The notes under the pieces were generated by a model. The model saw only the letters and a list, made by a program, of their open reading frames with translations, ran no database searches and was not told where the DNA came from. The position numbers were made by a program, and so were the translations under genes. DNA of 34,017 bases from Octopus sinensis (Eukaryota): assembly GCF_006345805.1 (NCBI RefSeq), contig NW_021832042.1, positions 1 to 34,017 of the forward strand. The letters are read 5' to 3'. Shown here in pieces: positions 1,411 to 1,602 of the stretch (its first letter is position 1; each line of letters opens with the position of its first letter).

Positions 1411-1602
1411 ATCGTTAGCTACTACATACATTTTTTTTCTCTCCTTGTTTCTCTCCTTGTTTTTTTCTGTGTCCCTTTCTGTCGAAGAGCGTAGGCTCGA
1501 AACGTAAAAGACTTTTTCTATTCCTGAGCGCTATACTAATACATTTGTTTGTTTGTACTCCACCTGCCTTCGTCTTTTGTTTATTTTCGTAAACTTTCCC
1601 GT
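1411..1602 (+). mobile_element. Short non-autonomous element or Penelope-like pLTR remnant carrying a hammerhead-like motif
   Basis: Unique-sequence island inside TG/TA microsatellite, ending at a (TA)n run, containing CTG-TC-GA-A-GAG-cgtagg-CTC-GAAACGTA. A 27-bp direct repeat with 2 mismatches lies at 1384-1410 and 1703-1729. Confidence 0.5.
1471..1512 (+). ncRNA. Minimal type-I hammerhead ribozyme-like motif (non-canonical core)
   Basis: Helix I CTTT(1475-1478)/AAAG(1507-1510); core CUGUCGA(A); helix II GAG/CTC with 6-nt loop; GAAA; palindromic helix III ACGT; predicted GUA site after 1506. Confidence 0.5.

What the first reader, a model, noticed from the sequence alone, without database searches (positions are those of the whole stretch)
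1411..1602. Second, minimal hammerhead-like motif with atypical CUGUCGAA core inside a short insertion
Seen: gtccCTTT-CTGTCGA-A-GAG cgtagg CTC-GAAACGTA^AAAGac. Helix I abuts the core on both sides and helix III is the ACGT palindrome. A6 is replaced by U and there is an extra A before helix II. Established: this geometry matches minimal type-I hammerheads in Penelope-like pLTRs. Inference: this is a non-autonomous Penelope derivative whose ribozyme is either decayed or a family-specific core variant. If the U6 plus extra-A core is the family consensus, it could be an undescribed hammerhead variant.
Basis: partly seen in the sequence, partly recalled or inferred. Interest (0 to 1): 0.7.

Follow-up and report, generated by a model that had tools for sequence, protein, structure and literature searches.

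The report
Hammerhead stub with altered core base
A 42-base stretch has the exact shape of the small self-cutting "hammerhead" RNAs carried by Penelope-type jumping genes and is likely the leftover tail of such an element; its one oddity, a U where the catalytic core normally has an A, would be a new natural variant only if other copies share it, which is untested.

Summary
The motif is real and not chance: 5 of 1231 shuffles of the window gave a comparable hit. Its geometry is that of the minimal type-I hammerheads of Penelope-like elements (PLEs): U-rich lead-in, short helix I, core box plus one extra base, G-C-opened helix II (4 bp, not 3), bare ACGU helix III, about 100 nt before a (TA)8 tract. 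Only U6 departs from the family. No RT or GIY-YIG remnant and no second copy lie in the window. Public runs under four organism labels hold 14-18 of 19 sampled words, which fits a dispersed repeat, but no copies were obtained, so whether U6 is shared (about 60%) or a private mutation is open. This lone copy probably does not cut: it has no dimer partner, position-6 changes are reported to be damaging, and U6 favours an alternative pairing. Verdict: PLE-type hammerhead stub with an unverified core variant; modest interest.

The parts
1411..1602 (+). Repeat-like segment, likely the 3' (pLTR) stub of a Penelope-like element; 5' limit uncertain
   Evidence: Single copy in the window; words held by public runs under four organism labels; origin inferred from the motif and its position
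1430..1478 (+). U-rich lead-in (65% T, 90% pyrimidine) with a 12-nt tandem duplication at 1436-1447/1448-1459
   Evidence: a U-rich 5' flank is part of the published PLE consensus
1471..1478 (+). Helix I, 5' strand (4 bp next to the core, 2-nt bulge, 2 more bp)
1479..1486 (+). Core box C3-A9 with U at position 6 (1482), plus the extra A (1486) typical of PLE motifs
   Evidence: comparison
1487..1498 (+). Helix II: 4 Watson-Crick pairs opened by G10.1-C11.1, 4-nt loop
   Evidence: Pair probability 0.96-1.0 in 42- and 66-nt contexts, 0.03 in the 192-nt context
1499..1506 (+). G12-A13-A14, palindromic ACGU (1502-1505; helix III possible only between two molecules), A17; predicted cut after 1506
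   Evidence: dimer model from PMC4209133
1507..1512 (+). Helix I, 3' strand
1603..1618 (+). (TA)8 tract at the 3' end; likely insertion target
   Evidence: (TA)n preference of several PLE clades in PMC8557442
1372..1410 (+). Left copy of a 39-nt direct repeat (92% alike, partly TG microsatellite); long target duplication or local duplication, undecided
1691..1729 (+). Right copy of the 39-nt direct repeat

Best explanation
The 42 bases at 1471-1512 match the minimal hammerhead of Penelope-like elements in every feature but one core base, and are likely the 3' end of a truncated element whose copies probably share that U6. Shown: the helices, the core letters, the (TA)8 tract, and no partner copy or RT gene in the window. 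Inferred mechanism: an autonomous PLE elsewhere in the genome was reverse-transcribed from its 3' end into a (TA)n site and stopped after about 200 nt. In a tandem parent, two such motifs would pair through their ACGU palindromes and cut after A17 to trim the transcript. With U6 that cut would be slow at best, and this lone copy is predicted to be inert.
For: Feature match to the published consensus (U-rich, short helix I, CUGANGAH, G10.1-C11.1, GAAAN, palindrome, NUH). By eye, 22 of 28 core and helix II letters equal the Acropora digitifera Neptune motif, and the ACGU-A junction equals Xenopus tropicalis family 2. Chance 5 of 1231; natural-sequence control 0 of 110. The motif lies about 100 nt before a (TA)n tract, like the Hydra-clade PLE motifs in PMC8557442 File S2, most of which lie 90-210 nt from the 3' end. 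If so few words are private, a private hit exactly on position 6 is unlikely a priori (my estimate 0.5-2%), which tilts toward a shared base. I also recall, from no call, that a like repeat is common in octopus records with the same base there; this is a lead only. [quoted passage not shown]
Against: No other copy was obtained, so neither a consensus nor covariation was tested. About 3.4 of the 19 words should span position 1482 and the chance that 3 or fewer do is 0.54, so the best independent runs (16 of 19) cannot show that U6 is shared; recurrent mutation in a large family also inflates word sharing. No RT or GIY-YIG remnant in 123 frames scanned. The motif is absent from the octopus Naiad and Hydra consensus sequences in PMC8557442's supplement. 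No Rfam hammerhead match. The window's other hammerhead-like motif also has one core change (U4C), and the SINE-like repeat copies here are 85-94% alike, so ordinary decay of core bases is plausible. In the whole 192-nt context helix II is predicted not to form (0.03).
Confidence: 0.5

Rival explanations
1. Same PLE stub, but the family has the ordinary CUGANGAA core and U6 is a private mutation of this copy (or of a small dead sub-branch). An ordinary decayed minimal hammerhead.
For: All 56 motifs in PMC4209133 Fig. S3 and all 34 rows of PMC8557442 File S2 have A6, though they were found mostly with descriptors that require it. Position 6 changes are damaging. Repeats in this window are 6-15% apart and the second motif also bears one core change. 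Up to 3 missing words in the best independent runs could be exactly those over position 1482.
Against: The 8 helix pairs next to the core and the other core letters are intact, and word sharing with other organism labels is high, both of which fit a little-changed copy.
Confidence: 0.3
2. A non-autonomous hammerhead element: a solo retrozyme unit or SINE-like repeat mobilised by PLE enzymes, rather than a truncated autonomous PLE.
For: Length about 200 nt, no ORF link in the window, 4-bp helix II and about 6-bp helix I as in canonical type-I motifs; non-LTR retrozymes are argued to derive from PLE pLTRs and include solo monomers (bioRxiv 10.64898/2026.07.22.740005).
Against: No tandem copy. 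The extra base at 9/10.1 and the loop-less helix III are marks of PLE minimal motifs rather than of canonical retrozyme motifs.
Confidence: 0.16
3. A chance hammerhead look-alike inside an unrelated repeat.
For: No Rfam match, no folding signal, one core mismatch.
Against: 5 of 1231 shuffles, 0 of 110 natural controls, and features of the published consensus that the descriptor did not ask for (U-rich lead-in, position before (TA)n).
Confidence: 0.04

Closest known systems
Minimal type-I hammerheads (min-HHRs) of metazoan Penelope-like elements (Cervera and de la Pena 2014, PMC4209133); nearest listed row Acropora digitifera Neptune
   Same: U-rich lead-in, short helix I, extra base between 9 and 10.1, G10.1-C11.1, loop-less palindromic helix III, mostly solitary copies from truncated elements; 22 of 28 core and helix II letters equal the Acropora row (by eye).
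   Different: U at position 6 (A in 56 of 56 listed); no RT-EN link shown here.
Hammerheads of Hydra-clade PLEs, including Hydra-1 of Octopus bimaculoides (Craig et al. 2021, PMC8557442, File S2)
   Same: Motif about 100 nt before the 3' end; (TA)n target.
   Different: Those have a canonical core and a real 3-4 bp helix III; the octopus family's sequence is different (7-bp helix II).
Natural core variants at position 6: A6C of phage Bcep176 and the A6a insertion (Perreault et al. 2011, PMC3088659)
   Same: A departure at or next to the same core position in a natural sequence.
   Different: A6C not A6U; phage intergenic; measured low activity (kobs under 0.1 per min). Nothing measured here.
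Non-LTR retrozymes of animals (PMC7229834, listing only; bioRxiv 10.64898/2026.07.22.740005)
   Same: Short non-coding unit with a type-I hammerhead that needs a dimer.
   Different: Defined by head-to-tail tandems; this copy is solitary and has the PLE-type minimal core.

Membership tests
PLE minimal hammerhead (min-HHR) | Core box CUGANGA | tested here: not met
   U at position 6 (1482); the other six letters fit. This copy is hammerhead-like, not a canonical member.
PLE minimal hammerhead (min-HHR) | Extra base between 9 and 10.1; G10.1-C11.1 pair | tested here: met
   A1486; G1487-C1498 (consensus)
PLE minimal hammerhead (min-HHR) | GAAA box, palindromic 15.2/16.2, NUH triplet | tested here: met
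   1499-1506, ACGU palindrome, GUA triplet
PLE minimal hammerhead (min-HHR) | Helix I and helix II adjoining the core | tested here: met
   4 bp each; 0 of 110 controls have both. Predicted to be out-competed in the 192-nt context.
PLE minimal hammerhead (min-HHR) | Consensus family with compensatory changes in the helices | tested here: inconclusive
   Word sharing points to a family, but no copies were obtained
PLE minimal hammerhead (min-HHR) | Self-cleavage as a dimer or with extended helix III | not testable with these tools
   Bench assay needed; the dimer hammerhead fold scores -13.9 kcal/mol against a co-fold minimum of -21.6
Penelope-like element (EN+) | RT plus GIY-YIG frame upstream of the pLTR | tested here: inconclusive
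   None in 123 frames of the window; the segment is preceded by microsatellite. Absence is expected for a truncated copy; the genome is not held.
Penelope-like element (EN+) | pLTR repeated in tandem or inverted | tested here: not met
   One copy in 34 kb. Most PLE motifs in genomes are solitary.
Penelope-like element (EN+) | 3' end at a microsatellite target such as (TA)n (Neptune, Hydra, Naiad clades) | tested here: met
   (TA)8 at 1603-1618. Weak: the window is rich in microsatellites.
Non-LTR retrozyme | Head-to-tail tandem units each with a complete hammerhead | tested here: not met
   Single unit (definition)
Rfam hammerhead families | Covariance-model match | tested here: not met
   Only an unrelated E=6 match in 1400-1610; the same blank for the 31109 motif

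The most novel reading that the evidence does not exclude
A successful Penelope-type family spread through several related genomes with a CUGU-N-GA core fixed across its copies and still cleaves (or has kept the hammerhead fold for another job), with U6 giving a built-in off-pairing in the monomer that only the dimer releases: a natural A6U hammerhead, at a position that mutagenesis treats as invariant.
Probability: 0.22. Interest if true: 0.6.

Novelty: new variant of a known kind. Interest (0 to 1): 0.34.

Why it matters
PLE hammerheads are known and their role is still unsettled: they cleave poorly in vitro and some clades spread without them. A high-copy family with a fixed change at a 'forbidden' core position would be a natural test of whether these motifs are kept for catalysis or for their fold, and would show that descriptor searches requiring CUGA miss whole families. 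If U6 is private, this is one of the many dead stubs in such genomes and matters little. The label 'new variant' is conditional on the consensus test; otherwise read 'new member of a known kind'.

Tried and rejected
Whole-genome search: no genome is held. No read or contig pile-up on the element was obtained, so the base at position 6 in other copies and the empty site are unknown. Expression: no RNA holder listed. Exact 19-nt scans gave 1 metagenome, 0 viral and 2 prokaryote-genome loci; all 3 share only 19-23 nt with the element and were rejected as chance. Reading the family base from spurious ORFs called over other copies: 3 word searches gave no scoring hit, the ESM Atlas gave none, and the full phmmer search gave one repetitive protein with 37% identity over 27 residues, rejected. 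Motif searches in paper text and in two supplements found no copy. Identity with octopus Naiad or Hydra-1 consensus ends: rejected. Rfam: whole window gave 239 matches at E 1 or less, of which the 150 shown are microRNA, snoRNA or sRNA models on simple repeats, all below gathering score; 89 not seen. Pfam on 123 frames of 45 aa or more that passed a complexity filter (low-complexity frames and frames in the element's right flank left out): no match reached a curated cut-off. Earlier-findings look-ups by sequence, place and words found nothing on this repeat. Lunse et al. 2017 and Arkhipova et al. 2017 are not held; either may list position-6 variants.

Full report
Setting. The window is animal-type DNA made largely of microsatellites and short dispersed repeats. 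I take it for an octopus from the look of its SINE-like repeats; that name is recalled and comes from no call. No genome is held.

Observation. On the + strand C3 is 1479, U6 1482, A9 1485, the extra A 1486, helix II 1487-1498, GAAA 1499-1502, the ACGU palindrome 1502-1505, A17 1506. A minimal-hammerhead descriptor with one core mismatch allowed finds 2 sites in the window, 1479 and 31109; 5 of 1231 block shuffles gave any hit. Among 110 viral loci bearing the same core letters, 9 have helix II of 4 bp or more, 5 helix I of 3 bp or more, none both. Folding energy alone is unremarkable and Rfam has no match.

What it is. Cervera and de la Pena (PMC4209133; I read main-text parts 1-2 of 4 and supplement parts 1-2 of 3) give the PLE consensus as U-rich, short helix I, CUGANGAH, G..C helix II, GAAAN, palindrome, NUH. 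They name the base between 9 and 10.1 as a conserved feature; by my count 54 of their 56 rows have it and 30 have A. So the 'extra A' is the norm. All 56 have A6, with the caveat that they were found mostly with a descriptor that demands it. By eye the motif shares 22 of 28 core and helix II letters with their Acropora digitifera Neptune row. The element ends about 100 nt after the cut site in (TA)8; Craig et al. (PMC8557442; passages, section 11, supplement searches and part 2 of 59) report (TA)n targeting for Naiad and Hydra elements, a microsatellite bias for Neptune, and hammerheads mostly 90-210 nt from the 3' end in Hydra elements. The octopus families in that supplement are not this element. 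If the octopus guess is right, PLEs are abundant there: 6.83% of the O. vulgaris genome in 190 families (PMC13282606; passages and supplement search; the passages search found no mention of hammerheads).

Surroundings. The segment has no second copy in 34 kb and is preceded by microsatellite, and no RT or GIY-YIG remnant showed in 123 frames. A 39-nt direct repeat (1372-1410, 1691-1729; 92%) brackets it; I cannot say whether this is a target duplication.

Is it a family? 18 of 24 listed runs hold half or more of 19 sampled words; they come from 8 studies (7 without X1, the possible source) and four organism labels, and two small DNA-type runs hold 12 of 19. X1 holds 18 of 19, so U6 is unlikely to be an assembly error (the chance that at most one word spans 1482 is 0.10). 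Whether other copies have U6 is not shown: about 3.4 words should span that base and the best independent runs lack 3. All indirect routes to other copies came up blank. My odds of about 60% for a shared U6 rest on an estimate (a little-changed copy has a 0.5-2% chance of a private A-to-T at that very base, against a prior of 1-3% for a family variant) and on an unverified recollection of octopus records.

How it would work. Shown: the parts and their pairing potential. From the literature: such motifs cannot form helix III alone; two copies pair through the palindrome, and single motifs gave no cleavage while dimers gave little (review PMC6765202, passages). Inferred: in a tandem parent element the dimer would cut after A17 and trim the transcript. 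Position 6 matters: natural A6C cleaves below 0.1 per min (PMC3088659, section 8), and in a full pairwise mutagenesis all CUGA-turn mutants but the C-G swap were low (PMC9901934, passages; type III construct, A6U value not given in the text I saw). U6 also creates a U4G5U6 / A15.1C15.2G16.2 pairing with probability 0.44-0.53, against 0.03 or less for A, C or G. The dimer hammerhead fold is 7.7 kcal/mol above the co-fold minimum, and in the whole 192 nt helix II is predicted not to form; such calculations ignore tertiary contacts. This lone copy is therefore predicted to be inert whatever the family state.

Novelty. Searches for hammerhead with octopus, for A6U, for PLE variants, for octopus PLEs, for core mutagenesis and for the motif's letters found no report of an A6U PLE hammerhead in the open library. 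Lunse et al. 2017 and Arkhipova et al. 2017 were not held and may bear on this, as may Perreault's Fig. S7 of inactive variants, which I did not open. Other papers seen: bioRxiv 10.64898/2026.07.22.740005 (part 1 of 5), PMC3376415 (passages on the extra viroid core base), PMC11014351, PMC8967140 and PMC12602865 (passages, nothing of use). Earlier AI notes on other genomes describe other core variants in PLE stubs; they were not checked and are not support.

Verdict. A real PLE-type minimal hammerhead motif, failing the canonical core at one base. PLE-derived about 0.8-0.95 depending on whether non-autonomous forms are counted; U6 shared by the family about 0.6; shared and still functional about 0.2. 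Interest 0.34.

Noticed in passing
window 31089-31173 (+), core at 31109: A second hammerhead-like motif with a U4C core change and a helix III of the ACUU..AAGU type seen in Hydra-clade PLE motifs, enclosed by a long near-perfect hairpin stem.
   Followed up: partly
window 16449-16565 and 19177-19290 (- strand): Two copies, 93% alike, of a repeat end that has helix I, helix II and GAAAC..GUC geometry but no CUGANGA box; partial copies at 18526 and 18848. Unexplained; may be a further degenerate hammerhead-derived end.
   Followed up: partly
window 12541-12761, 13792-14124, 18188-19169, 22165-22385: A dispersed SINE-like repeat of about 220 nt, copies 85-94% alike, partly in a roughly 320-nt tandem at 18.2-19.2 kb; recalled as an octopus SINE, from no call.
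   Followed up: partly
window 33585-34016 (+): A 144-codon frame open at the window's end with poly-Ala, poly-Thr and poly-His runs; may be the first exon of a gene on the same strand as the motif.
   Followed up: no
window about 1970-3590: A tandem array of about 120-125 nt units with variable (TA)n, starting about 370 nt after the element.
   Followed up: no
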